This document shows, piece after piece, positions 13,700-59,982 of a stretch of DNA of 64,000 nucleotides; position 1 is the stretch's first letter; the number at the start of each line of letters is the position of its first letter. The stretch is taken from IMG/VR virus record IMGVR_UViG_3300030379_000158; one strand, 5' to 3'. Made by a program: the position numbers and the translations under genes. A model generated the notes under the pieces. It did not search any database. It was not told the DNA's origin and saw nothing but the letters and a program-made list of their open reading frames with translations. Origin of the DNA: a virus. Its lineage: Duplodnaviria; Heunggongvirae; Uroviricota; Caudoviricetes.

Positions 13700-13858
13700 A
13701 CTTCCCCAAATAATGGCTGTTTGCTCGCCGAGCATCGCTCAAAGAAACACGATTATTCAAACATATAGATAGTGATAGTGCCCTCGTATAAGTGTGACAA
13801 CTTCTGGCTCTAGTGGGCTGGGGAGGCGGCGCTTTGTTGCTAAATGATCTGGTTTAAA

Positions 13859-15799
13859 ATGGATATGAAAAAAGAAACGATTTTTTCCGAAGTAGAAACG
13901 GCTAACAGCAAGCAACTGGCTGTGTTGAAAGCTAATTTCCCTCAGTGTTTTGATAAAAACGGAGCCTTCATTCAAGAAAAATTGCTTGAGATTATTAGGG
14001 CATCGGAAGTTGAACTCTCTAAAGAATCATACAGCTTGAACTGGCTGGGTAAATCTTATGCCCGTTTGTTGGCCAATCTACCACCGAAAACGTTGTTGGC
14101 AGAAGATAAAACTCATAACCAACAAGAAGAGAACAAGAACAGTCAACACCTGTTAATCAAAGGGGATAATCTCGAAGTATTGAAGCATATGGTTAATGCT
14201 TACGCTGAAAAGGTGAAGATGATTTACATTGACCCACCATACAATACAGGTAAGGATGGGTTCGTTTATAATGATGATCGCAAATTTACACCTGAGCAGC
14301 TTTCTGAACTAGCAGGCATCGACCTCGATGAGGCTAAACGCATATTAGAATTTACCACCAAGGGGTCAAGCAGTCATAGTGCATGGCTGACATTCATTTA
14401 CCCACGCCTTTATATTGCTCGTGAATTAATGAGAGAAGACGGGACTATTTTTATTTCTATTGACCATAATGAGTTCAGTCAATTAAAACTAGTTTGCGAC
14501 GAGATCTTTGGTGAGCAAAACCATGTTGGGGATCTAGTATGGAAAAATGCAACTGATAACAACCCTTCAAATATCGCTGTAGAGCATGAATATATTATTG
14601 TTTACACAAAAAACAAAGAGCAGCTTATAAGTGAGTGGAAATCTAATATCTCCGATGTAAAAAACTTACTTGTCAACATAGGTGAAGAATTTGCATCAAA
14701 ATACACTGGCAATGAACTTCAGGAAAAATATACCCAGTGGTTTCGTGAACACAGATCTGAATTATGGCCTCTTGACCGATACAAATATATAGACAAAGAC
14801 GGCATCTATACTGGTAGTCAGAGCGTCCACAACCCCGGAAAAGAGGGTTACAGATATGATATTATACATCCAAAAACTAAGAAGCCATGCAAACAACCTC
14901 TTATGGGATATCGTTTTCCATTAGATACAATGGATAGGCTTCTGTCTGAAGAAAAGATCATCTTCGGTGATGATGAAAACAAAATTATAGAACTAAAAGT
15001 TTATGCTAAGGATTACAAACAGAAATTAAGCTCCGTTATCCATCTTGATGGGCGTGTTGCAACGAACGAACTTAAAGAGCTGTTCCCAGAAATGACTCAA
15101 CCATTCACAAATGCTAAAACTATAAAATTAGTAGAAGATTTAATATCTTTTGCATGTGATGGAGAGGGTATTGTTTTGGATTTTTTTGCTGGGTCAGGAA
15201 CTACAGCGCATACAGTTTTTAATTTGAATAACAAAAATAAAACGTCGTATCAGTTTATTACAGTTCAACTAGATGAACCTACAAAAGATAAATCTGATGC
15301 CATGAAGCATGGCTATAATACAATATTTGACTTAACAAAGGAGCGTTTAATTAGGGCGTCTAAAAAAAATAGGGATCAGGGGTTTAAGGTATATCAACTA
15401 ATGCCAGATTTTCGCGCTAAAGACGAATCAGAACTTACACTGTCTAATCATACATTCTTTGATGATGTTGTCTTGACGCCTGAACAATATGACACTCTAT
15501 TAACTACATGGTGCCTGTATGATGGCAGTTTGCTAACAACACCTATTGAAGATGTTGATCTTGGTGGCTACAAAGCACATTTGTGCGATGGTCGTCTGTA
15601 TTTGATTGCACCTAATTTTACTAGCGAAGCATTGAAAGCGTTACTTCAAAAGGTGGATTCAGACAAAGACTTTGCTCCAAACAAAGTCGTGTTTTATGGC
15701 AGCAACTTTGAAAGCGCAAAGCAAATGGAACTCAATGAAGCACTAAAAAGTTATGCTAATAAAAAATCTATTGAGTTAGATTTGGTGGTGAGGAACTAA
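13859..15799 (+). CDS. mod: Type III restriction-modification methyltransferase (Mod), EcoP1I-like
   Basis: YIDPPYNTGKDGFVYND (DPPY N6-adenine MTase motif) and FAGSGTT AdoMet motif. 646 aa from MDMKKETIF. AT-rich gene. Confidence 0.9.
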   Translation: MDMKKETIFSEVETANSKQLAVLKANFPQCFDKNGAFIQEKLLEIIRASEVELSKESYSLNWLGKSYARLLANLPPKTLLAEDKTHNQQEENKNSQHLLIKGDNLEVLKHMVNAYAEKVKMIYIDPPYNTGKDGFVYNDDRKFTPEQLSELAGIDLDEAKRILEFTTKGSSSHSAWLTFIYPRLYIARELMREDGTIFISIDHNEFSQLKLVCDEIFGEQNHVGDLVWKNATDNNPSNIAVEHEYIIVYTKNKEQLISEWKSNISDVKNLLVNIGEEFASKYTGNELQEKYTQWFREHRSELWPLDRYKYIDKDGIYTGSQSVHNPGKEGYRYDIIHPKTKKPCKQPLMGYRFPLDTMDRLLSEEKIIFGDDENKIIELKVYAKDYKQKLSSVIHLDGRVATNELKELFPEMTQPFTNAKTIKLVEDLISFACDGEGIVLDFFAGSGTTAHTVFNLNNKNKTSYQFITVQLDEPTKDKSDAMKHGYNTIFDLTKERLIRASKKNRDQGFKVYQLMPDFRAKDESELTLSNHTFFDDVVLTPEQYDTLLTTWCLYDGSLLTTPIEDVDLGGYKAHLCDGRLYLIAPNFTSEALKALLQKVDSDKDFAPNKVVFYGSNFESAKQMELNEALKSYANKKSIELDLVVRN

Positions 15800-15801
15800 T
15801 C

Positions 15802-18714
15802 ATGTCAAAAGGGTTCACTCTCGAAAAGAACTTGCCGCATCAGAAAGCAGGAGTCGATGCGGTGATGAATGTTTTTGTTTCCGCAACACCTCACCTGACG
15901 GATAATGTTGCTGTTCGCCTTTTAGCTAATCCTGAACTGAAGCTGTCTGAACAACAATACTACAACAATATAAAAAATGTTCAGGCGTTCAATGGTATTG
16001 CGCACTCAAAAGATAATCACAATGCTAAAAGCAACATCATTGATGTTTCTATGGAGACAGGTACAGGCAAGACGTACACCTATATCAAAACTATTTTTGA
16101 CCTGAATAAATCATTTGGTATTAACAAGTTTATCATCATTGTTCCGACTCTATCTATCAAGGCCGGAACCGTTAACTTTTTAAAAAGTGATGCTTTAAAA
16201 GAACACTTCCGGGATGATTACAAGCGTGAGCTGAGAACTTACGTTGTTGAAAGTCAGAAAAACGCTGGCAAAAATACAAAATCGTATATGCCTCAGGCTA
16301 TACATGATTTTGTTGAAGCAAGTAACTTCAATAAAAAATATATACACGTTCTTGTTATTAACTCAGGAATGATCAACTCTAAGTCTTTAACGGATACTTA
16401 CGATACTGGCTTGCTTGATAATCAGTTTAATACTCCAGTTGACGCGCTCAGAGCTGTAAAACCATTTATCATCATTGACGAACCACATAGATTTCCTACT
16501 GGTAAAAAAACATGGGAAAACATAGAGAAATTTAACGCACAATATATTATCCGCTATGGCGCAACCTTTAGCGAAGGCTATAAGAACCTGGTTTATCGTC
16601 TTACAGCCGTGGACGCATTTAACGATGATCTCGTTAAAGGTATTGATGCATATATTGAGGATATAGTCGGCGATGGTAACGCAAACCTCAAATTCGTCAA
16701 ATCTGACGGAAAGGAAGCTACATTTGAACTGAATGAAAACAACAACAAAAAATCGTTTAAGTTAGCTAAAGGTGAATCACTGTCTAAGACGCATAGTGCG
16801 ATCCATGATTTAACTCTTGATGCTTTAAACAAGAGCACAGCAGTGTTGAGTAATGGTATTGAGTTGAAGATTGGTAGCTCAATAAATCCCTATTCTTACG
16901 ATCAGACACTCGCTGATAACATGATGCGTAAGGCTGTCAAAGAACACTTTAAGTTAGAAAAAGAACTTCTGACACAAAGGCCACGCATAAAGCCTCTTAC
17001 TCTTTTCTTTATTGACGATATTGAAGGCTATCGTGACGGTAATGATATTTCCGGAAGCCTGAAGACCAAATTCGAAGAATACGTTCTGGCAGAAGCTAAT
17101 GAACTGTTAAAAACAGAGCAAGATGCGTTTTATAAAAACTATCTTGAAAAAACAGTCACAAATATATCTTCCGTTCATGGTGGTTATTTCTCAAAAGATA
17201 ACAGTGATAAGGATGATAAAATCGAGCAGGAAATCAACGAAATCCTTCATGACAAAGAGCTTTTGCTGTCTTTAGATAATCCCCGTCGGTTTATTTTCTC
17301 AAAATGGACGTTGCGTGAGGGGTGGGATAATCCTAATGTTTTTCAGATCTGTAAGCTCCGTTCGAGCGGTAGTACCACATCTAAGCTTCAAGAGGTAGGG
17401 CGCGGTTTGCGTCTTCCTGTGAATGAATACATGTGTCGAGTGAAAGACCGCAATTTTACCCTTAAATATTATGTTGATTTTACAGAAAAGGATTTTGTTG
17501 ACTCACTTGTTAAAGAGGTCAACGAGAGTTCTTTCAAAGAAAGGGTTCCAAGTAAGTTTACTCAAGAGCTTAAGGAACAAATCATGGCTCAGTATCCTGA
17601 GCTTTCATCCAGAGCACTAATGAATGAACTTTTCAATGATGAAATCATTGATGACAATGATAATTTCAAAGATTCAGATGCCTATAGCCGCTTAAAATCC
17701 AAATATCCAGCAGCATTCCCTATAGGAGTGAAACCTGGTAAAATCAAAAAAGCTACTGATGGAAAAAGACGCACTAAAATGCGTGTTGGTAAGTTCAGTG
17801 AGCTGAAAGAACTATGGGATTTGATCAATCAAAAAGCGGTGATTGAGTACAAAATAAACAGTGAAAGTGAATTTTTATCCATTTTCAAGTCATTCATGCT
17901 CGAAGAAACAGAACGATTTACCAAATCAGGCGTTCATACTCGCATTGATAAAATTTACATCCACAATGATATGGCAATGTCGAAAAGCATTGTCAGTGAT
18001 GACGATGACTTTGCTAAGCTGAACACAATGAGCTATCGAGAGTTTCTCGATAACTTATCACAGACTATTTTTGTTAAACACGGTACTTTACATAAAGTTT
18101 TTTGTGATATAAAAGACACTATTAATATCACTGAATACCTTAATATTCAAACAATCAGAAAAATTAAATCTGGTTTTAGTAAGTATTTGTTGAACAATTC
18201 GTTTAATAAATTCAGCCTCGGATATAATTTGATTTCGGGTTCAATTCATCCTACAAAGTTCACAAATGCTGATGGTAATCCTCTAGGCGAGGTATTATCA
18301 AGTGATCTTGGTGTATTGCAGGATAATGCAAAAGCACCATTAGATACTTATCTTTTTGAAGAAGTTTTTTATGATTCAGAGCTTGAAAGGCGTAATATAA
18401 CAGATAGAGAGATCCAGTCTGTTGTTGTTTTTTCAAAGATACCGAAGAATTCTATTAAGATCCCGGTAGCTGGTGGATACACTTACTCACCCGATTTTGC
18501 TTATGTTGTAAAAACAGCGGAAGGTGATTATCTTAATTTTATCATTGAAACAAAAAACGTAGATAGTAAGGATAGTTTACGGCTTGAAGAAAAACGGAAA
18601 ATTGAACATGCCCAAGCGCTTTTCAATCAAATAAGTCAGTCTGTTAAAGTTGAATTCAGAACGCAGTTTGCTAATGATGATATTTATCAGTTAATCAAGA
18701 GCGCATTACCATAA
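15802..18714 (+). CDS. res: Type III restriction enzyme Res subunit (SF2 helicase-nuclease), EcoP1I-like
   Basis: 970 aa; helicase motifs TGTGKT and DEPH; start 3 nt after mod stop. Confidence 0.9.
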   Translation: MSKGFTLEKNLPHQKAGVDAVMNVFVSATPHLTDNVAVRLLANPELKLSEQQYYNNIKNVQAFNGIAHSKDNHNAKSNIIDVSMETGTGKTYTYIKTIFDLNKSFGINKFIIIVPTLSIKAGTVNFLKSDALKEHFRDDYKRELRTYVVESQKNAGKNTKSYMPQAIHDFVEASNFNKKYIHVLVINSGMINSKSLTDTYDTGLLDNQFNTPVDALRAVKPFIIIDEPHRFPTGKKTWENIEKFNAQYIIRYGATFSEGYKNLVYRLTAVDAFNDDLVKGIDAYIEDIVGDGNANLKFVKSDGKEATFELNENNNKKSFKLAKGESLSKTHSAIHDLTLDALNKSTAVLSNGIELKIGSSINPYSYDQTLADNMMRKAVKEHFKLEKELLTQRPRIKPLTLFFIDDIEGYRDGNDISGSLKTKFEEYVLAEANELLKTEQDAFYKNYLEKTVTNISSVHGGYFSKDNSDKDDKIEQEINEILHDKELLLSLDNPRRFIFSKWTLREGWDNPNVFQICKLRSSGSTTSKLQEVGRGLRLPVNEYMCRVKDRNFTLKYYVDFTEKDFVDSLVKEVNESSFKERVPSKFTQELKEQIMAQYPELSSRALMNELFNDEIIDDNDNFKDSDAYSRLKSKYPAAFPIGVKPGKIKKATDGKRRTKMRVGKFSELKELWDLINQKAVIEYKINSESEFLSIFKSFMLEETERFTKSGVHTRIDKIYIHNDMAMSKSIVSDDDDFAKLNTMSYREFLDNLSQTIFVKHGTLHKVFCDIKDTINITEYLNIQTIRKIKSGFSKYLLNNSFNKFSLGYNLISGSIHPTKFTNADGNPLGEVLSSDLGVLQDNAKAPLDTYLFEEVFYDSELERRNITDREIQSVVVFSKIPKNSIKIPVAGGYTYSPDFAYVVKTAEGDYLNFIIETKNVDSKDSLRLEEKRKIEHAQALFNQISQSVKVEFRTQFANDDIYQLIKSALP

Positions 18715-20789: not shown

Positions 20790-21821
20790 CTAATCGCCAT
20801 CTTCCAGCAGGCGCACCATTGCCCCTGTTTCACTATCCAGGTTACGGATATAGTTCATGACAATATTTACGTTGGTCCAGCCACCAGCTTGCATGATCTC
20901 CGGTATTGAAACTCCGGCACGGGCCATATCTCGCGCGGCTCCGACACGGGCACTGTGTCCAGACCAGGCCAGGTACCTCTGGCCAGAGTCATCCTTAGCC
21001 CCGTAAATCAATCGGTGAGTTGCTTCAAAAATCCCTTCCAGGGCGCGAGTTGATAGCTGGCTGGTGGGTGATGGCGAGGCAACACCATTTTTTCTGACCC
21101 GGCAAAACAAGTAGTTATTCGGATCATCAGCCACACCAGAGACAGAAATCCATCGCTCGACCAGTTTAGTTACCCCCAGGCTAAGTGCCTTCTCTACACC
21201 TGCGGTGCTAACCAGCGTTTTCGTTCTGCCAATATGGATTAACATTCTCCCACCGTCAGTACGTGAGATATCTTTAACCCTGATCCTGGCAATTTCGGCT
21301 ATACGTAACAGGGTGTTATAAGCAATCCCCAGAAATGCCAGATTACGTATATCCTGGCAGCGATCGCTATTTTCCATGAGTGAACGAACCTGGTCGAAAT
21401 CAGTGCGTTCGAACGCTAGTGCCTGTTTTGCACGTTCACCGGCATCAACGTTTTCTTTTCGGATCCGCCGCATAACCAGTGAAACAGCATTGCTGTCACT
21501 TAGTCGCGGCAGCCCGGACCGACGATGAAGCATGTTTAGCTGGCCCAAATGTTGCTGGATAGTTTTTACTGCCAGACCGCGCGCCTGAAGATATAGAAGA
21601 TAATCGCGAACATCTTCAGGTTCTGCGGGAAACCATTTCCGGTTATTCAACTTGCACCATGCCGCCCATGACCGGCAAACGGACAGAAGCATTTTCCAGG
21701 TATGCTCAGAAAACGCCTGGCGATCCCTGAACATGTCCATCAGGTTCTTGCGAACCTCATCACTCGTTGCATCGACCGGCAATGCAGGCAAATTTTGGTG
21801 TACGGTCAGTAAATTGGACAT
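20790..21821 (-). CDS. cre: Cre tyrosine recombinase
   Basis: 343 aa, MSNLLTVHQNLPALPVDATSDEVRKNLMDMFRDRQAFSEHTWKMLLSVCRSWAAWCKLNNRKWFPAEPEDVRDYLLYLQARGLAVKTIQQHLGQLNMLHRRSGLP... Differs from recalled canonical Cre at only a few residues. Confidence 0.97.
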   Translation of the reverse strand: MSNLLTVHQNLPALPVDATSDEVRKNLMDMFRDRQAFSEHTWKMLLSVCRSWAAWCKLNNRKWFPAEPEDVRDYLLYLQARGLAVKTIQQHLGQLNMLHRRSGLPRLSDSNAVSLVMRRIRKENVDAGERAKQALAFERTDFDQVRSLMENSDRCQDIRNLAFLGIAYNTLLRIAEIARIRVKDISRTDGGRMLIHIGRTKTLVSTAGVEKALSLGVTKLVERWISVSGVADDPNNYLFCRVRKNGVASPSPTSQLSTRALEGIFEATHRLIYGAKDDSGQRYLAWSGHSARVGAARDMARAGVSIPEIMQAGGWTNVNIVMNYIRNLDSETGAMVRLLEDGD

Positions 21822-22974: not shown

Positions 22975-23826
22975 ATGATAAATTATGTCTACGGCGAACA
23001 ACTGTACCAGGAGTTCGTCAGCTTCAGGGATCTCTTTCTAAAAAAAGCTGTTGCACGCGCCCAACACGTTGATACAGCCAGCGACGGTCGTCCTGTACGC
23101 CCGGTTGTCGTTCTACCGTTCAAAGAAACTGACAGCATTCAGGCTGAAATTGATAAATGGACTTTAATGGCGCGGGAACTGGAACAGTACCCAGACCTCA
23201 ATATCCCAAAGACTATTTTATATCCAGTGCCTAACATCCTTCGCGGTGTGCGTAAGGTTACAACTTATCAGACAGAAGCTGTGAACAGCGTCAACATGAC
23301 CGCTGGCCGCATTATTCATCTGATTGATAAGGACATTCGCATCCAAAAAAGCGCGGGGATCAATGAGCACAGTGCGAAATACATAGAGAACCTGGAAGCA
23401 ACAAAAGAGCTAATGAAGCAGTACCCGGAGGATGAAAAATTCCGTATGCGCGTACACGGCTTTAGCGAAACAATGCTGCGCGTCCACTACATTTCCAGTA
23501 GCCCTAACTACAATGATGGTAAATCAGTTAGTTACCATGTGCCACTGTGTGGCGTGTTTATCTGCGATGAAACTCTCCGTGATGGAATTATCATCAACGG
23601 TGAATTCGAAAAAGCAAAATTTAGCCTTTATGACTCCATAGAACCGATCATCTGCGACCGCTGGCCGCAAGCAAAAATATATCGCCTGGCAGATATTGAA
23701 AATGTAAAAAAACAAATTGCCATCACTCGCGAAGAGAAAAAGGTTAAGTCAGCCGCATCAGTTACGCGCAGCCGTAAAACCAAGAAGGGGCAGCCAGTAA
23801 ACGACAACCCCGAAAGCGCGCAATAA
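22975..23826 (+). CDS. c1: C1 repressor of lytic functions
   Basis: 283 aa, MINYVYGEQLYQEFVSFRDLFLKKAVARAQHVD..., matches recalled P1 C1 in length and sequence. Confidence 0.95.
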   Translation: MINYVYGEQLYQEFVSFRDLFLKKAVARAQHVDTASDGRPVRPVVVLPFKETDSIQAEIDKWTLMARELEQYPDLNIPKTILYPVPNILRGVRKVTTYQTEAVNSVNMTAGRIIHLIDKDIRIQKSAGINEHSAKYIENLEATKELMKQYPEDEKFRMRVHGFSETMLRVHYISSSPNYNDGKSVSYHVPLCGVFICDETLRDGIIINGEFEKAKFSLYDSIEPIICDRWPQAKIYRLADIENVKKQIAITREEKKVKSAASVTRSRKTKKGQPVNDNPESAQ

Positions 23827-23858
23827 ATTATGCCCGGCATCAACCGGGCATTCTTCCA

Positions 23859-24977
23859 TTATTCAGCCGCCACCGGTTTTAACAAGCCAGCATCGAGCAG
23901 TTTACGCGTCAACCACTGCTGGCCTTTACCCGTTAATTGAGGCGTCAACCGTATCTGGTAGCCATCTTCATCATCCAGCACCACTTCTTTCACCGTGAAA
24001 TACCCCGCGTTGATGTACTGCTGGAACGGCACATTTTTACGTCCACCGGACGCTATCAGGATGCCGTTCTCCCGTAACCAGACAAACAGCGCGTTTTGTT
24101 TAAGTCCAACAACCTTTGCAAAATTCCCAATCAGGATCCCTTTAGCTACTGATACCCGGTCGGCAAAATCGACTTTAGGAGCGGCGGCCACCAGCTGCTG
24201 ATTTAGCTGGTGGGCTTTCTGTTCCAGAAGTTGCTTTTGTTCAGCCAGTTCGGCAGCCAGGCGTAGGGCTTCAGGAAGCGTCTGGGGGATTGCGATCGGT
24301 TGCTGTTCTTTTTGTCGGAAGTAGCTGTCTTCCAGTTTTTCAAAGAATGCCCATGCCTGATCGGTTTCGAGCATTTTAGCGTGGCGGGCTGCGCCGCGTT
24401 CTGTCCAGAGGGTGAGTGAGCGAACATTGCGAGCAATTTTTACAGAGTAGTTTAAAGCTACTCTGTGCTTCAACTCGCGCAATGATTCTCCTTCAACTTT
24501 GAAAAAGTGCTTCCCTTCAACAAAGCGTACTTTGTTCTCATGATGATTTTGGCGAATACGGATTGTTTCTGTCCCATACCCTCTAGCAAGAGTCTCGGTT
24601 GTCACTACACGCACTCCCTGCCATTCCAGAACGGGAATTTCATCAGACTGATTCTGAACAACCACCAGCTCCGATTCTTGAACTGAAGGTGCATGAATTT
24701 TTTCTGATTTAACGTTAGTTGCTTTCATTCTGTGTGCCTCCTTGCGTGCTTCGGCTGCGGCGGTTGCGTAATTCAGATGACCCTGTTCGAGCAGGTATTC
24801 GCGGATATCAGACAACAGGATACGGTGAACCGCGTTCTTGTCCTTTCTCCGGTAAAGTTGTTTGGTGATCATGAAGTAATTGGCAATAACGCCTGGTATA
24901 TCCCTGGTACTGATACAGGCAGTGTGCTGTTCAATTGCCTCGATCATCTCTTCACGGGTGACTAATGACGTTCTCAT
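23859..24977 (-). CDS. Antirepressor-like protein (ORF6N/Rha-like N-domain plus KilAC-type C-domain), 372 aa
   Basis: Central EWQGVRVVTTETLARGYGTETIRIRQNHHENKVRFVEGKHFFKVEGESLRELK and C-terminal NVPFQQYINAGYFTVKEVVLDDEDGYQIRLTPQLTGKGQQWL resemble phage antirepressor domains. Translationally coupled to the upstream 74-aa ORF. Confidence 0.55.
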   Translation of the reverse strand: MRTSLVTREEMIEAIEQHTACISTRDIPGVIANYFMITKQLYRRKDKNAVHRILLSDIREYLLEQGHLNYATAAAEARKEAHRMKATNVKSEKIHAPSVQESELVVVQNQSDEIPVLEWQGVRVVTTETLARGYGTETIRIRQNHHENKVRFVEGKHFFKVEGESLRELKHRVALNYSVKIARNVRSLTLWTERGAARHAKMLETDQAWAFFEKLEDSYFRQKEQQPIAIPQTLPEALRLAAELAEQKQLLEQKAHQLNQQLVAAAPKVDFADRVSVAKGILIGNFAKVVGLKQNALFVWLRENGILIASGGRKNVPFQQYINAGYFTVKEVVLDDEDGYQIRLTPQLTGKGQQWLTRKLLDAGLLKPVAAE

Positions 24978-25195
24978 AGTCCCTCCTGAGCAGAAGCGTT
25001 AACAGGGAGGCACCAGTAACTGAGAGAATTGCGTGAATCAGTGGAAAAACGGGCAGAGAAAATACATGGGGCGTCAGGAAGCTGAGAGCGGGCCTCATCT
25101 TCTGTCGGTGCAATAACGAAGTGATAGTGACGTTTTTGGCAGGAGTAAAAGCGCCAGATAAATTCAGGATGAGTTGGGGTAGGGATAGTAGCCAT
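24974..25195 (-). CDS. Icd-like small protein (74 aa)
   Basis: ATG at 25195 preceded by AGGAGG; stop overlaps start of the antirepressor-like gene. Arrangement mimics icd-ant of P1 immI. Confidence 0.5.
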   Translation of the reverse strand: MATIPTPTHPEFIWRFYSCQKRHYHFVIAPTEDEARSQLPDAPCIFSARFSTDSRNSLSYWCLPVNASAQEGL

Positions 25196-25249
25196 ATTGG
25201 CAGCCTCCTTAGACGTTGGTATGTAACCACCGCAGAAGAGACCAATCTT

Positions 25250-25345
25250 GCTGGCGGTGGACTGTACGGAGTTGGCCTTACTGGCGTCCAAGGTAACCAG
25301 CCTACCCGAAGGTAGCCCCATACAGCCCACCATTGTAGAGGTGTG
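25250..25345 (-). ncRNA. Candidate c4-like structured antisense RNA in the leader of the icd/ant-like operon
   Basis: Minus-strand leader has a 7-bp closing stem (ggctgta/tacagtc) enclosing hairpins such as ctacc-ttcgg-ggtag, and a segment attggcctccc partly complementary to the downstream RBS taaggaggctgccaat. Confidence 0.3.
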
Positions 25346-25514
25346 CGTGTACGCCGATACAAAAAAAAGACGCGAGCGGCGTCTGTATCGCCTTAGACTT
25401 AAGCGGGAGGCCAATCCCGGCACCCGTTTTAATGAGGTGCCTGATAAGCATAAACCGAAAATGCCTCAAGGCGCAAGAGGTCAGGCTCAATGTAACATCG
25501 GTAGTTAAAAAACA

Positions 25515-25531
25515 CAATTTATTAGAGCAAA
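25515..25531 (-). promoter_or_regulatory. C1 operator upstream of the icd/ant-like operon
   Basis: caatttattagagcaaa, 15/17. Confidence 0.6.
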
Positions 25532-25537
25532 TATTCA

Positions 25538-27019
25538 TTAATTAAGCCATGCCAGAGCTTCATCAACCTGCGCTTCGTCTTCGACGCTAAGCACTTCATC
25601 CTGGGGAACATAATCAGCCAGCATAGCGAAACAATATGTATCCCAATGGTCTGGTGAGTGCAGGTTGAGTTTTTTCTTCATATCCTCCTTACTCATCACC
25701 TTCCATTGACCTGCGGAGTTAATCCCTACAGGGATTTTCGACGCTTCCTCAATAGTTTCATTACCCTTATCCAGTCTCATACGACCAGATTTTACGGCCT
25801 CTGCGGCTTGAACGTTGGCATAAGCACGTTTATCAAAGTACAGGCTCTTATCTTCACGGCTATGCATCTTTTTACCCCAGCGTATACGCTGTACGGTAAT
25901 ACCATAATACTCGTACATCAGATCCGCCGTTGCTTTACCCAGGCCATCGCCGTCTATCGCTATGGTGATATTGGGGAATCGCTCAGGATTACATTCTGCG
26001 AAAATTTTGGCGGCAAGCTGCGTTTCTGTAACGTCTGTGTATTCCAGCATTCGATAGTTGATTACACGGCGTTTATTTCGCTGGCCGGACACCATCATGA
26101 TATTGATAACGGACTTATCCCGTCCCGTACCACCAGCAACGTCCACACATGCAAGCCAGCCCCATCCTTTTGCAATCTTGACTTTCCGCCGCGTTGCACG
26201 TTCAACCTCATCACGCCCAAGAAGGAAGCCATCCTGTGATTTAGGGAATAGGCCGCGTACCTTAATCATGTACATAGGGTTATCACGCCCGCCGTACTCC
26301 GCCAGCTTCATTTTGATAAATGCTGGCGTTACCAACGGTGATTCCTCACTGTTAAGCGTGATCGCCGTATAAACGCCATCAGGGTTACCAGGACGCTTGG
26401 CCAGTTTATGGTGTGTATCGTAGAAATAGCCGCTTGGGCGTGTAGGCTGTGACAGCAATAAGATGCGGTTATCCTGTCCGGTAAGAGCACCGGTGATGAT
26501 ACCGAAAGCTCTATCACTGACACCGGAGGCTTCATCGATAATATACAGAAGATGATCTGCGTGTTCACCGGCGAGAGCTTCTTCACTTCCCAGACGAAAG
26601 CCCTTCGGTACTACAGTCCATACACCTTTACCAGTAACCTCATAGAAAGCGGTTTCTGTCAGAACAAAATAATCAGCAAGCCATGGAAAACGGCTGGTGG
26701 CAGTAGCCCAGTTTATCTTGATGTACTTGAATATACCGGTCATTACCTGCTGAATTTTGTTCGCAACGATAATGGCGCGGGCACCGGGATACATGATTAT
26801 GAACAACATGATCATGATAGAAGTCATGTCTGATTTCCCGGTACCGTGACCAGACGAAACAGATGTCTTGCTACCCTGTTCCTGCACAGACTCAATAATC
26901 AGATCCTGCTGCCAGGTAGGTGTTTTGCCGAACAAAACATCAGCGGCAGCAATCCAGTCATAACGATATAGCGCCACCAGCTCGCGCCAACGTGGATCCG
27001 TTACGCAACTTCTGGCCAT
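25538..27019 (-). CDS. pacB: Terminase large subunit PacB
   Basis: 493 aa with ATPase Walker-like region; directly downstream of pacA, start overlapping pacA stop. Confidence 0.85.
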
Positions 27020-30767: not shown

Positions 30768-31157
30768 TTAAATCACCGGACAATCATCAAACTCCCCACT
30801 TCGGGCATCATTGATGACATGAGTGATCACACCAAAAACAGCATTACTGCCCGTGCATCCATCGTCATCTACTGGTAACGCCTCTTTCTTCCCGGTGCTT
30901 AAATCCTCCAGGTGCTGGCGCGGATACTTCCTGTATCTCTTTATGCGATATTCACCCTCCATAGCGCACACAAGCAGAGAACCATCAACCGGAGTAAGCG
31001 AGGAATCAACCACCAGCAAAGCACCCTGCAATATTCCCTCACGGTGATGGCTATCAGCTGCCCGCATGAAGTAGGTTGCTGATGGATGCCTGATTAGTTG
31101 CTGATCAAGAGAAATTCGGCTTTCAACATAATCCGCCGCAGGAGAAGGGAAGCCCAT
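30768..31157 (-). CDS. humD: UmuD-like protein HumD
   Basis: 129 aa with S24 peptidase-like core; LexA box immediately upstream. Confidence 0.8.
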   Translation of the reverse strand: MGFPSPAADYVESRISLDQQLIRHPSATYFMRAADSHHREGILQGALLVVDSSLTPVDGSLLVCAMEGEYRIKRYRKYPRQHLEDLSTGKKEALPVDDDGCTGSNAVFGVITHVINDARSGEFDDCPVI

Positions 31158-31176
31158 AGCGTTTCCACCTCAATAA

Positions 31177-31196
31177 TACTGTTCATTTATACAGTA
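31177..31196. promoter_or_regulatory. LexA (SOS) box
   Basis: TACTGTTCATTTATACAGTA, perfect CTGT-N8-ACAG, 20 bp upstream of the humD start. Confidence 0.8.
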
Positions 31197-31508
31197 TACA
31201 TTAAAGAGACACCTTTGGTGCAAACGCGTTACGTACATCAACCACCGCTGATGATTTTGTGCGCTTTGCTACTATTCATCACCAACGGATCAGCGTAACC
31301 TCGTTGCCAATCAGTTAATAAGGAATTAGCTATGCCTAATCGCATTCCTCTCGATCCTGTATTGCCCAAAAATTTTGACTGCACTCCTAACGAGAAACGC
31401 TTTAAAGCTCAGCTGGACGCCTAGTGGGACCATCCATATGGGGTTACACAACCTGACGGGAAAATTGTAGTTTATTGTCTGAATGGTGGGGCGTGGGACC
31501 GTCCATCC

Positions 31509-31916
31509 GTGCTTTGTTTGGCAGATAACTATGATGAAGCCTGTGAACTTGCCGAAAGACAGCAGGCAAGCTGGGTAAAAACACGGTCTGAACCGACATT
31601 CATGTTTTCAAAAGAACCGCCATTTATACTGGCGAGGATGTCGCAGCGACCGGATCATCAACAAGAAATTGTTGCTGAATTTTCCTCAAGGGATGAGATG
31701 AATCTCTTCTCATTAAAGCAGGAAGAAAGGGATCGCGTCGAAGTGTCTCCAACTCTCGACCACAACCGGATGAACCTGGCCCAGCTCGCCTGGTACAGCA
31801 AAGAATTAGAGATGTCTATTGCCCGGCTTGAAAACGAAAAAGCCGCTATCCAAGTCCAGCACGAAGTAGTTCTGAACCGGATTAGAGAAATGCAAAACGA
31901 TAACAGGGGATTTTGA
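31509..31916 (+). CDS. Hypothetical protein (135 aa, GTG start; alternative ATG further in)
   Basis: ORF divergent from humD; coiled-coil-like C-terminus; stop abuts start of next gene. Confidence 0.45.
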   Translation: MLCLADNYDEACELAERQQASWVKTRSEPTFMFSKEPPFILARMSQRPDHQQEIVAEFSSRDEMNLFSLKQEERDRVEVSPTLDHNRMNLAQLAWYSKELEMSIARLENEKAAIQVQHEVVLNRIREMQNDNRGF

Positions 31917-32273
31917 ATGGCTAAAATCGAGTACCATCGCGATCGCAGTAATTACCTGGAAATATACGATCATGAATCTCTTAACGATATCAACGATGCG
32001 TTATATGAATACTGTGAAAAAACGAGCATCACAGATGCACCTGATGCATTTGTCGAGCTGCCGGTATATCTCCGCGACATCTATGCAATACGAACACCGC
32101 CCGTATCGGTGATTCACATTGGCTATGTCCGCCTGTCCATCGAAGAAGATGAAGATCGTTATATCGTGCGCCACTATACATTGGACAGAAAAGAACTTCC
32201 TAATGAATGGAACATGAGTAATTTCTACAACGGTGAATATGGCTTAAAATCCGCTAATAATTTACGGTCATAA
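31917..32273 (+). CDS. Hypothetical protein (118 aa)
   Basis: AT-rich ORF coupled to the upstream ORF (TGA then ATG). Confidence 0.45.
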   Translation: MAKIEYHRDRSNYLEIYDHESLNDINDALYEYCEKTSITDAPDAFVELPVYLRDIYAIRTPPVSVIHIGYVRLSIEEDEDRYIVRHYTLDRKELPNEWNMSNFYNGEYGLKSANNLRS

Positions 32274-33135
32274 TCTATACAGGCATGTATAACAACAACG
32301 AGCCTATTAGCTGTCAACAACGTTATTTCCTCAAATAAGAAAAAGCAGAAAACAAATTGTTTAAGGTCACAAATTGTGGCCTTGATGGAGGAGGGAGGCT
32401 TATTGGCTATGGCTAAAAATCAAATTAGACACTTCATGTTGCTGTAGCTCATCAAGATCCGAGGCCACAAAACCTTTTCCGAAAAACTTCACAAGTAACT
32501 CACTAGCCGCATCATTGTCACCTATTACACGAAAGTCATACGGCAACGTCGCAAGTTGACGATGTAATCCTGCTGAGAAAGTCGAATCTAACAGCGCCCA
32601 GAATTCCCACCGCAGGATAATACTCGCCTCTTAATACTGTATATATGTTGTTACGATATGTTTTTCTGTCTCTAAAAAAAGATGTTAATAGAATGCTAAC
32701 CATTGAAGGGGATAAAAATATACAATTCCAACAAACGTTATTTTTAACAATTTTTTTCTTTGCGTTGACTTTCCCGGACACCTTGTCTGACCGAAGGTGC
32801 GCGAAAGCCACTTTTTCCTTCCTGAGTTATCCACAAAGTTATGCACTTGCAAGAGGGCCATTTTCTACATATTGTGGTGGCTAACAGATGAAATGAATGT
32901 AGATTAATTGAAGATAAGGAGAAAATTTGAGATGCAATCATGACGTTAATAGATAGGGTCTGCATTACAGACCCCACCCGCATCAAGGAATTAGCCGTTC
33001 CCTGATGTTTTTCCGAAAACATGTGCCGTAAGCTCACGTTAACGACTTTCATTCACCGAATCCAACTATATAGGGGTTGGGTTTCTACGTCAACGTGAGC
33101 AAGTGCACCTTTACATTTGACAAGGAACCACCTGA

Positions 33136-33273
33136 ATGAACGCTTTTTTTCAGTTCCTGAGTGCATTTTTAGATGCGCCTATTATTAGCCAGATTCTGGC
33201 TATTATCCTCATCATCGTTTTGATTTTGCTTTTAAGGTCAGTAAAAAATGGAATTATGCACTGGCTTACTTAA
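33136..33273 (+). CDS. Small hydrophobic peptide (45 aa), candidate membrane toxin-like ORF
   Basis: MNAFFQFLSAFLDAPIISQILAIILIIVLILLLRSVKNGIMHWLT; AAGGA upstream; flanked by long inverted repeats in an ORF-poor AT-rich gap. Confidence 0.3.
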   Translation: MNAFFQFLSAFLDAPIISQILAIILIIVLILLLRSVKNGIMHWLT

Positions 33274-33348
33274 TGTTTCAGTGAAACATTAAAATCTCCT
33301 TGATGTGGAAACAATCATTTTCTGTATGTGCTGGTGGGCACCTGTAGT

Positions 33349-58494: not shown

Positions 58495-58684
58495 CCACCC
58501 TGCCCCCAAAAGTGCATTTATGTGCAGGATGCCAGAGTTTAGCAGTGAATATTTTGATGATCTGCCAGCGTATATCCTCGATACAGAAACGATGCTGATG
58601 GGGATTAACAGGAAGAATCGCAACGTTAATGATTACAACCGCGCTATCAGCGGTATGAACCGCCCCGGGAATCCTGGAGACTAA
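58349..58684 (+). CDS. o-spanin (Rz1-like lipoprotein) candidate, 3' end altered by IS629 insertion
   Basis: Lipobox FLLTLSGC, Pro-rich segment [11 protein letters not shown]; reading frame runs 29 nt into the IS629 left end so the last codons are IS-derived. Confidence 0.5.
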
Positions 58685-58709
58685 ACTTCCTGAGAAAGAG
58701 GTAAACAGG

Positions 58710-59036
58710 ATGACTAAAAATACTCGTTTTTCCCCCGAAGTCCGTCAACGGGCAGTCCGTATGGTTCTGGAAAGTCAGGATGAATATGACTCACAGTGGG
58801 CGGCAATTTGTTCCATTGCCCCAAAGATTGGCTGTACGCCGGAGACTCTGCGTGTCTGGGTTCGCCAGCATGAGCGGGATACCGGGGGCGGTGATGGTGG
58901 GCTCACCAGCGCTGAACGTCAGCGTCTGAAAGAGCTGGAACGTGAAAATCGTGAACTGCGCCGCAGTAACGATATCCTTCGCCAGGCTTCCGCTTATTTT
59001 GCGAAGGCGGAGTTCGACCGCCTCTGGAAAAAATGA
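58710..59036 (+). CDS. IS629 transposase OrfA
   Basis: [55 protein letters not shown]..., helix-turn-helix IS3-family OrfA. Confidence 0.9.
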
Positions 59037-59923
59037 TGCCACTGCTGGATAAGCTGCGTGAGCAGTACGGGGTCGGACCGGTATGCAGCGAACTGCATAT
59101 TGCCCCGTCAACGTATTACCATTGTCAGCAACAGCGACATCATCCGGATAAACGCAGTGCCCGTGCGCAGCACGATGACTGGCTGAAGAGAGAGATACAG
59201 CGCGTATACGATGAAAATCATCAGGTGTACGGTGTGCGTAAAGTCTGGCGTCAGTTGTTACGGGAAGGAATCAGGGTGGCCAGATGTACAGTGGCGCGCC
59301 TCATGGCGGTTATGGGACTTGCCGGTGTTCTCCGGGGTAAAAAGGTCCGTACGACCATCAGCCGGAAAGCCGTTGCCGCAGGCGACCGCGTAAACCGTCA
59401 GTTCGTGGCAGAACGACCTGACCAGCTGTGGGTGGCTGATTTTACTTACGTCAGCACATGGCGGGGCTTCGTCTATGTGGCGTTCATCATTGATGTGTTT
59501 GCCGGATACATCGTGGGGTGGCGGGTCTCATCGTCCATGGAAACGACATTCGTGCTGGATGCACTGGAGCAGGCGTTATGGGCCCGTCGACCGTCCGGCA
59601 CGGTCCATCACAGTGATAAAGGTTCTCAGTATGTATCGCTGGCCTACACACAGCGGCTTAAGGAAGCCGGATTACTGGCATCAACAGGAAGTACAGGCGA
59701 CTCGTATGACAACGCGATGGCGGAGAGCATCAATGGTCTTTACAAAGCGGAGGTAATACACCGTAAGAGCTGGAAAAACCGTGCAGAAGTGGAACTGGCC
59801 ACACTCACGTGGGTGGACTGGTATAACAATCGACGATTGCTGGAAAGGCTGGGCCATACTCCTCCGGCAGAAGCAGAAAAAGCTTATTATGCTTCCATCG
59901 GAAACGATGATCTGGCAGCCTGA
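59033..59923 (+). CDS. IS629 transposase OrfB (DDE integrase core)
   Basis: DDE motif context ...VADFTYV...HHSDKGSQY...[10 protein letters not shown]; overlaps orfA as expected for programmed frameshifting. Confidence 0.9.
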
Positions 59924-59982
59924 GTTCACAGATAAAACACTCTCCAGGAAACCCGGGGCGGTTCAGTAACTAAAAGGGATTT

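What the first reader, a model, noticed from the sequence alone, without database searches (positions are those of the whole stretch)
23859..25535. A c4/icd/ant-like immunity module sits between c1 and pacB
Between the C1 repressor gene and the terminase genes there is a C1 operator (25515-25531), a ~300-nt structured leader, a strongly initiated 74-aa ORF, and a translationally coupled 372-aa antirepressor-like gene. This copies the logic of the P1/P7 immI region, but as I recall P1, immI lies far away beside kilA-repL and c1 abuts pacB. Operator spacing supports an insertion: the window has roughly 4 kb more DNA between loxP and the operators I equate with Op86/Op88 than P1 map units imply. 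This could be a relocated or second immunity module, or a repressor-controlled antirepressor of a new specificity.
Basis: partly seen in the sequence, partly recalled or inferred. Interest (0 to 1): 0.72.

Follow-up and report, generated by a model that had tools for sequence, protein, structure and literature searches.

The report
Second c4–icd–ant immunity operon in P1-like plasmid
A P1-like phage-plasmid carries, wedged between its main repressor gene and its DNA-packaging genes, an extra copy of the small-RNA-controlled antirepressor switch that P1 normally has elsewhere; about a third of P1 relatives have this extra copy, and its RNA recognition code differs from the standard copy's.

Summary
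P1 and P7 have 24 bp between the c1 and pacB stop codons. The window has a 1.7-kb insert there (23827-25537, minus strand). In order it holds:
- a C1 operator (15/17 to consensus);
- an Rfam isrK-type leader RNA ending in an intrinsic terminator;
- an Rfam C4 antisense RNA (75.9 bits);
- a 73-aa Icd homologue (80% identical to P1 Icd);
- an ATGA-coupled 372-aa Ant (mosaic relative of P1 Ant1).

It is a second module, not a relocated one. The closest plasmid, and every IMG/VR genome I could read at both loci, also keeps the canonical immI beside kilA-repL.

The c4 recognition elements a' and b' match upstream (a1/b1) and downstream (a2/b2) targets, and b2 overlaps the icd Shine-Dalgarno sequence. 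In 50 c1-pacB modules there are five a/b combinations, each concordant at all six sites. They are unrelated to the eight canonical immI combinations and assort freely with them.

The insert is not new as DNA. It occurs in 279 of 5426 complete E. coli genomes, is annotated in RCS47, and was noted in one sentence by Venturini 2019. The second c4 and its specificity types were not described in any paper I could search.

Verdict: a new member of a known kind, moderately interesting.

The parts
25515..25531 (-). C1 operator-like site TTTGCTCTAATAAATTG, starting 7 nt after the pacB stop codon
   Evidence: 15/17 match to the C1 consensus. The window has 14 such sites against 0.31 expected by chance. 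It aligns with P1 Oc4/Op51. It is present only in the P1-like version of the cassette.
25489..25517 (-). Putative C1-controlled distal promoter. The -35 is TTGTGT and overlaps the operator; a 17-nt spacer follows; the extended -10 is TGtTACATT.
   Evidence: Read from the sequence. It aligns with P1 P2c4/P51a, whose -35 overlaps Oc4. The consensus scan did not call it, so it is inferred.
25447..25476 (-). Putative proximal promoter (TTGCGC, 18-nt spacer, TATGCT), which places the start near 25440
   Evidence: Read from the sequence. The Rfam isrK model starts at 25440. Part of this stretch is conserved in non-P1 cassettes that lack the operator. Inferred.
25363..25440 (-). isrK-type leader RNA carrying a1 (25414-25408, TTGGCCT) and b1 (25398-25391, GTCTAAGG). 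It ends in an intrinsic terminator (stem 25384-25368 followed by T8).
   Evidence: Rfam RF01394 at 60.8 bits, gathering score 50. Terminator found. The a1:a' and b1:b' pairings are 99.6% paired in 65 leaders, and 11 of 15 pairs change on both sides.
25250..25337 (-). c4-type antisense RNA. The predicted mature RNA is about 25331-25256, by alignment with the 77-nt P1 c4. b' is the loop at 25293-25286 (CCTTGGAC); a' is at 25278-25272 (AGGCCAA).
   Evidence: Rfam RF01695 at 75.9 bits, gathering score 45, full length. Stems are 99.7-100% paired with many compensatory changes.
25204..25245 (-). c4 target region in the icd mRNA: a2 at 25245-25239 (TTGGTCT) and b2 at 25214-25207 (GTCTAAGG). b2 overlaps the Shine-Dalgarno AAGGAGG at 25210-25204.
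   Evidence: Complementarity and concerted variation across alleles.
24974..25195 (-). icd-like ORF, 73 aa
   Evidence: 80% identical to P1 Icd. NCBIfam NF033153 at 49.8 bits, cut-off 25. Translation.
23859..24977 (-). ant, 372 aa, coupled to icd by an ATGA overlap. A conserved internal Ant2-like start lies at ATG 24728-24726, with its Shine-Dalgarno at 24743-24737.
   Evidence: 56% identical to P1 Ant1. The N-terminal (~65%) and C-terminal (~93%) parts are homologous; the middle is replaced by an ORF6N domain. phrog_63 'anti-repressor Ant' at 438.9 bits.
23830..23851 (.). G+C-rich hairpin between the converging ant and c1 genes, a likely bidirectional terminator
   Evidence: It replaces the 24-bp P1 intergenic sequence.

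Best explanation
The insert is a functional second immI-type operon, paralogous to P1/P7 c4-icd-ant1/2, wired into the C1 regulon but with its own antisense specificity.

Proposed mechanism:
1. Transcription starts downstream of pacB from two promoters. The distal one overlaps a C1 operator. The proximal one does not.
2. Part of the transcripts stop at the intrinsic terminator. This gives a ~78-nt isrK-type RNA that carries decoy sites a1 and b1.
3. Read-through transcripts carry c4, icd and ant. The ~76-nt c4 RNA is excised.
4. c4 pairs through its loop b' and junction a' with b2 and a2 in the mRNA. b2 covers the icd ribosome-binding site, so Icd is not translated.
5. Because ant starts in an ATGA overlap with the icd stop codon, Ant is not made either.
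6. Where no cognate c4 is present, Icd and Ant (and a nested Ant2-like product) are made and Ant inactivates C1. This would happen on entering a cell without this c4 type, or when the a1/b1 and mRNA targets outnumber c4.
7. Because a' and b' differ from those of the canonical immI, the two switches do not cross-talk. Immunity type becomes a two-locus, four-site code.

Shown here: the parts, their homology, the pairing and its covariation, coexistence with the canonical immI, and orthogonality of sequence.

Inferred from P1 and Gifsy-1 work: C1 binding, promoter use, c4 processing, translational repression and polarity, and Ant-C1 binding.
For: Parts and homology:
- Rfam C4 at 75.9 bits and isrK at 60.8 bits, in the right order and strand.
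- Same layout and nearly the same spacing as P1 immI.
- Icd 80% identical; NF033153 hit.
- Ant homologous to P1 Ant1 at both ends, with a conserved Ant2-like start.
- Operator real by statistics and specific to the P1-like version.

Pairing and covariation:
- In the folded leader, a1/b1 pair with a'/b'.
- Fifty operator-linked modules fall into 5 a/b combinations, each concordant at a1/a'/a2 and b1/b'/b2.
- On 65 distinct isrK-type leaders, the c4 fold plus target pairing is 95.3% paired. Shuffled controls give 77% and slid controls 29-49%. 28 of 42 pairs change on both sides.
- a1/b1 pairing is 99.6% paired.
- Among 14 otherwise near-identical leaders, variation is concentrated in the six recognition sites: 12 of 45 columns against 15 of 300, p = 2e-5.

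Second module and orthogonality:
- The canonical immI is also present in the closest plasmid and in all 26 paired IMG/VR genomes, with free assortment of alleles.
- Cognate pairing is 7/7 for a and 8/8 for b; non-cognate pairing is only partial.

Persistence: the module is intact in 279 complete E. coli genomes.
Against: - There are no expression or binding data.
- The consensus promoter scan found no minus-strand promoter in 25440-25535. Both promoters are called only by alignment with P1 and by eye.
- The operator has two end mismatches.
- The middle third of Ant is unrelated to P1 Ant1, so its target might differ.
- The window ends before the place where the canonical immI would lie. Coexistence is therefore shown for relatives, not for this exact element.
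- The pairing controls use related sequences, and the a1 anchor fixed the first three a1 bases by construction.
Confidence: 0.75

Rival explanations
1. The module is an antirepressor cassette aimed at something other than the element's own C1. Candidates are repressors of other resident prophages or of competing P1-like plasmids with divergent C1. It would be borrowed from lambdoid or Gifsy-type prophages and serve cross-induction rather than P1 immunity.
For: - The leader is isrK-type, as in Gifsy-1. There the downstream antirepressor-like AnrP raises expression of another prophage operon (PMC4825925).
- The same leader type sits in many non-P1 prophage contexts with other payloads, such as a Rha-type regulator.
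- The central domain of Ant (ORF6N) is foreign to P1 Ant1.
Against: - The cassette carries a C1 operator that the non-P1 versions lack.
- The Ant N-terminal (~65%) and C-terminal (~93%) regions are those of P1 Ant1, including the Ant2-like start.
- Icd is 80% identical to P1 Icd.
Confidence: 0.15
2. The module is a neutral or decaying duplicate created by recombination between P1-like plasmids, with no present function.
For: - Both ends resemble the canonical immI.
- One IMG/VR contig (L023) carries a tandem duplicate with a truncated ant, which shows the region recombines.
Against: - The ORFs are intact, and the Shine-Dalgarno sequences and ATGA coupling are kept, in hundreds of records at 87-99.9% identity.
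- There are concerted three-way compensatory changes at six short sites, and variation is enriched there. Drift does not produce this pattern.
Confidence: 0.05
3. The c4-type RNA acts as in satellite phage P4 (CI RNA). It would cause premature transcription termination by pairing with leader sequences, rather than blocking icd translation.
For: - An intrinsic terminator lies directly after the a1/b1 sites.
- The Gifsy-1 authors raised this possibility for STnc1160 (PMC4825925).
Against: - b2 overlaps the icd Shine-Dalgarno in every P1-like allele (GTCTAAGGAGG, GTCAAAGGAGG, GCAAAAGGAGG). This is the P1 arrangement.
- In the same paper, co-expressing STnc1160 did not relieve the IsrK effect.
Confidence: 0.05

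Closest known systems
P1/P7 immI operon (Op51/Oc4, P51a/b, a1-b1, c4 RNA, a2-b2, icd, ant1/ant2)
   Same: - Same order of parts and nearly the same operator-to-icd distance (336 versus 330 nt).
- Same c4 fold.
- Same two-site recognition logic, with b2 over the icd Shine-Dalgarno.
- ATGA coupling of icd and ant.
- Nested Ant2-like start.
- Icd 80% identical; Ant ends 65-93% identical.
   Different: - Location: between c1 and pacB, converging on c1, instead of beside sim and kilA-repL.
- The a1/b1 element matches Rfam isrK, not c4-a1b1 (RF03163), and has a clear T8 terminator.
- Leader nucleotide identity is only 40-58%.
- The central third of Ant is replaced by an ORF6N domain.
- The recognition sequences are unrelated (AGGCCAA/CCTTGGAC against CTGTCAA/TCACTAAC).
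Gifsy-1 isrK-orf45(STnc1160)-anrP locus of Salmonella (Hershko-Shalev et al. 2016, PMC4825925)
   Same: - isrK-type RNA with a Rho-independent terminator and partial read-through.
- A processed ~80-nt RNA downstream that is complementary to IsrK.
- A small ORF coupled by AUGA to an antirepressor-like gene.
   Different: - Here the small ORF is a separate Icd homologue downstream of the c4 RNA.
- The cassette has a P1 C1 operator.
- The payload is a P1 Ant1-like protein.
- The paper nowhere uses the terms 'c4 RNA', 'c4 antisense' or 'bacteriophage P1'. Equating STnc1160 with c4 is my inference.
- AnrP homology was not tested.
The ant insertion between pacB and c1 in RCS47 and pTZ20_1P (GenBank FO818745; Venturini et al. 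2019, PMC6906374)
   Same: Same locus and same module family. RCS47 matches 93% of the query at 93.8% identity. [quoted passage not shown]
   Different: - RCS47 carries a different specificity allele: a TTGAGAC and b GTCAAAGG.
- Neither the record nor the paper mentions the c4 RNA, the operator, the a/b sites or icd.

Membership tests
P1/P7 immI-type c4-icd-ant operon | c4 antisense RNA with the family fold | tested here: met
   Rfam RF01695 at 75.9 bits, gathering score 45, model positions 1-87 of 87. Stems are 99.7-100% paired with compensatory changes.
P1/P7 immI-type c4-icd-ant operon | a' and b' complementary to a2/b2 in the mRNA, with b2 over the icd ribosome-binding site | tested here: met
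   a' AGGCCAA pairs with a2 TTGGTCT (6 Watson-Crick pairs plus 1 G-U). b' CCTTGGAC pairs with b2 GTCTAAGG (7 plus 1 G-U). b2 overlaps AAGGAGG. The sites covary across alleles.
P1/P7 immI-type c4-icd-ant operon | Upstream a1/b1 copies of the targets | tested here: met
   a1 TTGGCCT and b1 GTCTAAGG; 99.6% paired in 65 leaders. They lie on an isrK-type element. RF03163 (c4-a1b1) did not hit here, though it hit the canonical locus of the sister plasmid.
P1/P7 immI-type c4-icd-ant operon | Icd homologue translationally coupled to ant | tested here: met
   80% identity to P1 Icd. NF033153 at 49.8 bits, cut-off 25. ATGA overlap at 24977-24974.
P1/P7 immI-type c4-icd-ant operon | Ant1/Ant2-type antirepressor that binds C1 | tested here: inconclusive
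   56% identity to Ant1, with homologous ends and a conserved internal start. Pfam ANT domain. The middle is non-homologous. C1 binding is not testable here.
P1/P7 immI-type c4-icd-ant operon | C1 operator overlapping the distal promoter | tested here: met
   Sequence level only: 15/17 to the consensus, aligned with Oc4. Binding by C1 is not testable with these tools.
P1/P7 immI-type c4-icd-ant operon | Map position beside sim and kilA-repL | tested here: not met
   It lies between c1 and pacB. The canonical position is separately occupied in relatives.
P1/P7 immI-type c4-icd-ant operon | c4 excised from the operon transcript; repression of icd translation causes polarity on ant | not testable with these tools
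   Needs RNA and genetic experiments.
Gifsy-1 isrK locus | IsrK RNA fold with a Rho-independent terminator | tested here: met
   RF01394 at 60.8 bits, gathering score 50. Terminator stem 25384-25368 plus T8.
Gifsy-1 isrK locus | IsrK complementary to a downstream processed RNA; small ORF AUGA-coupled to an antirepressor | tested here: met
   Features of the Gifsy-1 locus are taken from PMC4825925.
Gifsy-1 isrK locus | AnrP-type payload and control of antQ | not tested
   No AnrP sequence was compared.

The most novel reading that the evidence does not exclude
Immunity among P1-like phage-plasmids is a combinatorial lock with two loci and four sites. The c1-pacB module would be an orthogonal, rapidly diversifying second key. 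A superinfecting element whose second c4 type is not matched by the resident would express Ant and break the resident's C1 repression. Switching of a/b specificity would then be under selection in plasmid-versus-plasmid competition. As a corollary, isrK-family sRNAs would in general be a1/b1 decoys (sponges) for c4/CI-type RNAs. That would join two Rfam families that are not currently linked.
Probability: 0.35. Interest if true: 0.65.

Novelty: new member of a known kind. Interest (0 to 1): 0.45.

Why it matters
P1 immunity is a textbook tripartite system in which a two-site antisense code (c4) sets heteroimmunity, classically with two types, P1 and P7. If the second module works as inferred, a large fraction of natural P1-like plasmids run two independent c4 switches on one repressor. 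These plasmids are common carriers of resistance genes in E. coli. This survey found at least 5 x 8 possible specificity combinations, of which 16 were seen in the 25 usable operator-linked genome or contig pairs. That would change how superinfection immunity, co-residence and induction of these elements should be predicted. It also offers a natural set of orthogonal RNA-RNA recognition pairs.

Tried and rejected
- Relocation of immI: rejected. Relatives keep the canonical locus.
- Transposon-type insertion: no target-site duplication or terminal inverted repeats beyond chance-level 11-mers.
- A third P1 site next to ref: the L135-type cassettes have a Ref-like neighbour. BLAST against the window shows they are not P1 backbone, so I dropped this.
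- Consensus promoter scan: found no minus-strand promoter in the leader. The promoters rest on alignment with P1 only.
- Literature: Gilcrease & Casjens 2018 (PMC5800970) and Lobocka 2004 (PMC523184) are not held. I could not check whether they describe this module or the c4 allele diversity. Two searches failed on short terms.
Only 1.69 kb lies at this junction.
Full report
**What the window is.** The window is a P1-like phage-plasmid. It holds cre (20790-21821, -), coi, c1 (22975-23826, +; 99% identical to P1 C1), pacB (25538-27019, -) and pacA. Most of it aligns at 97-99.9% with E. coli plasmid NZ_CP027133.1. The window ends near that plasmid's parA, before the position where the canonical immI (c4-icd-ant-kilA-repL) would lie.

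**Checking the observation.** In P1 AF234172 the stop codons of c1 and pacB are 24 bp apart. In the window, 1711 bp (23827-25537) replace those 24 bp.
- A BLAST of 23600-25800 against phage records covers P1, P7, SJ46 and phiW39 only at the two flanks (22-23%).
- It covers RCS47, vB_EcoM-673R5 and JL22 in full.
- Among plasmid records, 271 of the 816 that match any part of the query cover at least 80% of it.
- Among 5426 complete E. coli genomes, 279 carry at least 80% of the module, mostly on plasmids.

**Anatomy, reading the minus strand from pacB.**
- C1 operator: TTTGCTCTAATAAATTG at 25531-25515, starting 7 nt after the pacB stop codon. It matches the C1 consensus at 15 of 17 positions. 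Sites of this quality occur 14 times in the window against 0.31 expected.
- isrK-type RNA: Rfam isrK (RF01394) at 25440-25363, 60.8 bits. It ends in an intrinsic terminator, stem 25384-25368 plus T8.
- c4 RNA: Rfam C4 (RF01695) at 25337-25250, 75.9 bits, full length.
- icd-like ORF: AAGGAGG, then 8 nt, then ATG at 25195. It is 80% identical to P1 Icd and passes NCBIfam NF033153.
- ant: the icd stop overlaps the start of a 372-aa gene in ATGA (24977-24974). This protein carries Pfam ORF6N and ANT/KilAC domains, matches phrog_63 'anti-repressor Ant', and is 56% identical to P1 Ant1.
- Ant is mosaic. Residues 1-85 (~65% identical) and 231-372 (~93%) are homologous to Ant1, while the middle is unrelated. 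The Ant2 internal start of P1 is conserved (ATG 24728, AAGGAGG 8 nt upstream).
- Terminator: a G+C-rich hairpin (23851-23830) separates ant from the converging c1.
- Layout versus P1: operator, two promoters, a1/b1, c4, a2/b2, icd, ant1/ant2 in the same order. The operator-to-icd distance is 336 nt here and 330 nt in P1.

**Second module, not relocated.** NZ_CP027133.1 matches the junction region at 99.9%. It has this module and also a canonical immI at 72.7-76.1 kb, with Rfam c4-a1b1 and C4 hits, icd, ant, kilA and repL. I retrieved IMG/VR loci with a pattern specific to each locus. In all 26 contig or genome pairs that could be read at both loci, both modules were present. One of those pairs (L091/L187) carries an isrK-type cassette without the C1 operator, so 25 pairs concern the c1-pacB module itself.

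**How it probably works.**
- In P1, loop b' and junction a' of c4 pair with a2 and b2 in the mRNA. b2 covers the icd ribosome-binding site, and a1/b1 are upstream copies (GenBank annotation; sequences).
- The window has the same logic with different letters. The a sites are a1 TTGGCCT, a' AGGCCAA and a2 TTGGTCT.
- The b sites are b1 GTCTAAGG, b' CCTTGGAC and b2 GTCTAAGG. b2 overlaps the Shine-Dalgarno sequence.
- In the minimum-free-energy fold of the leader (z = -3.8), a1/b1 pair in cis with a'/b'.
- From P1 and Gifsy-1 work I infer three steps. c4 blocks icd translation and thereby the coupled ant. C1 shuts the distal promoter. The terminated isrK-type RNA titrates c4 (PMC8546580 for the P1 outline; PMC4825925 for IsrK).

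**Comparative test of the pairing.**
- The 50 operator-linked (c1-pacB) modules in hand (IMG/VR loci plus the window and RCS47) fall into five a/b combinations. The a types are TTGGCCT, TTGAGAC and TTGGAAC. The b types are GTCTAAGG, GTCAAAGG and GCAAAAGG. Each combination is concordant at all six sites.
- On an alignment of 65 distinct isrK-type leaders from P1-like and other prophages, the c4 fold plus a'-a2 and b'-b2 is 95.3% paired. Shuffled controls give 77.0% and slid controls 29-49%. 28 of 42 pairs change on both sides.
- a1-a' plus b1-b' is 99.6% paired, against 69.1% shuffled and 33-49% slid. 11 of 15 pairs change on both sides.
- Among 14 RCS47-type leaders that are otherwise nearly identical, 12 of 45 recognition-site columns vary against 15 of 300 elsewhere (Fisher p = 2.4e-5).
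- This pattern is what selection for new specificities would produce. It argues against a decaying duplicate.

**Orthogonality.**
- The canonical immI loci in the same collection show eight combinations: a TTGACAG or TTAGCAG, crossed with five b types. That is more than the classical P1 and P7 pair.
- None of their recognition sequences resembles those of the second module. Cognate pairs form 7/7 (a) and 8/8 (b) base pairs; non-cognate pairs form only partial matches.
- The two loci assort freely. The 26 pairs show 17 combinations. Leaving out the one pair without a C1 operator gives 16 combinations in 25 pairs.

**Origin.**
- The isrK-type leader with c4, icd and an antirepressor or regulator payload is widespread in other prophages, with more than 25 further specificity combinations.
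- In those copies, homology upstream stops at the proximal promoter. The C1 operator and distal promoter are found only in the P1-like version.
- Relative to P1 immI, nucleotide identity is 58% over the operator region and 40-48% over the rest of the leader. It is 62-80% over icd and 60-72% over the 5' part of ant. It falls to 32-48% in the middle of ant and is 75-97% over most of the 3' part.
- The module therefore looks like a chimera of a P1 immI frame and an isrK-type leader.
- No transposon-like ends were found.

**Prior knowledge.**
- RCS47's GenBank record annotates 'ant' at this place.
- Venturini et al. 2019 state in one sentence that two short hypothetical ORFs and an ant gene are inserted between pacB and c1 in pTZ20_1P, as in RCS47 (PMC6906374).
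- PGAP names the proteins 'Icd-like' and 'KilAC antirepressor'.
- No searchable paper describes a c4 RNA, the operator or specificity types at this locus.
- Gilcrease & Casjens 2018 and Lobocka 2004 could not be read. This is a real gap.

**Verdict.** The element is an additional, orthogonal member of the immI/c4 family, and the insert itself is already present and annotated in databases. What appears new, within the literature I could search, is three things:
- recognition of the second c4 switch;
- its isrK-type a1/b1 element;
- its five specificity types, which assort freely with the canonical ones.

All functional steps remain inferences from homology and covariation.

Noticed in passing
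L146-L225 (IMG/VR canonical immI loci); P1 reference L007:1641-1960: The canonical immI of P1-like elements shows at least eight a/b recognition combinations (a TTGACAG or TTAGCAG, crossed with five b types). Each is concordant at a1/a'/a2 and b1/b'/b2. This is well beyond the classical P1 and P7 types.
   Followed up: partly
L050-L145 (IMG/VR), e.g. L135:2786-3906: isrK-type leader plus c4 plus icd cassettes are common in non-P1 prophages. They show more than 25 further specificity combinations and other payloads, for example a 212-aa Rha/HTH protein in L135. Rfam places C4 and c4-a1b1 in clan CL00128 but lists no clan for isrK, although the isrK a1/b1 sites pair with c4 in 99.6% of cells.
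   Followed up: partly
L023:678-2810: One IMG/VR contig has two copies of the operator and leader 1566 bp apart downstream of pacB. This is a tandem duplication of the module. The first ant is shortened to 340 aa with a truncated KilAC domain.
   Followed up: partly
window 25250-25440, as annotated in RefSeq relatives: RefSeq/PGAP records list an 'ash family protein' CDS among the features under matches to the leader part of the module (query 81-384, i.e. the isrK/c4 region and the start of icd). It may be a spurious protein call on RNA genes.
   Followed up: no
window 58655-59966 (ALIL hit at 58991-59107): About 1.3 kb here are absent from the sister plasmid, and the stretch contains an Rfam ALIL pseudoknot at 121.5 bits. 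ALIL is, from my own knowledge, the frameshift element of IS3-family transposases. This suggests an IS insertion.
   Followed up: no
window 13844-18714 and 30771-37257: These two stretches are not shared with the sister plasmid. The first encodes a type III restriction-modification pair (mod 13844-15799, res 15802-18714), as in P1. The second includes an Ead/Ea22-like protein. In the sister plasmid the corresponding place holds a type I hsd system.
   Followed up: partly
window 23822-23832 and 25513-25523: An 11-nt inverted repeat, 91% complementary (AATAAATTATG / CACAATTTATT), lies at the two edges of the insert. One arm is inside the C1 operator. It is probably chance, since 28 pairs of similar quality occur in 2 kb.
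   Followed up: no
window 51008-51080, 52515-52587, 52593-52665: Three tRNA genes lie on the minus strand, as I recall for the P1 tRNA cluster.
   Followed up: no
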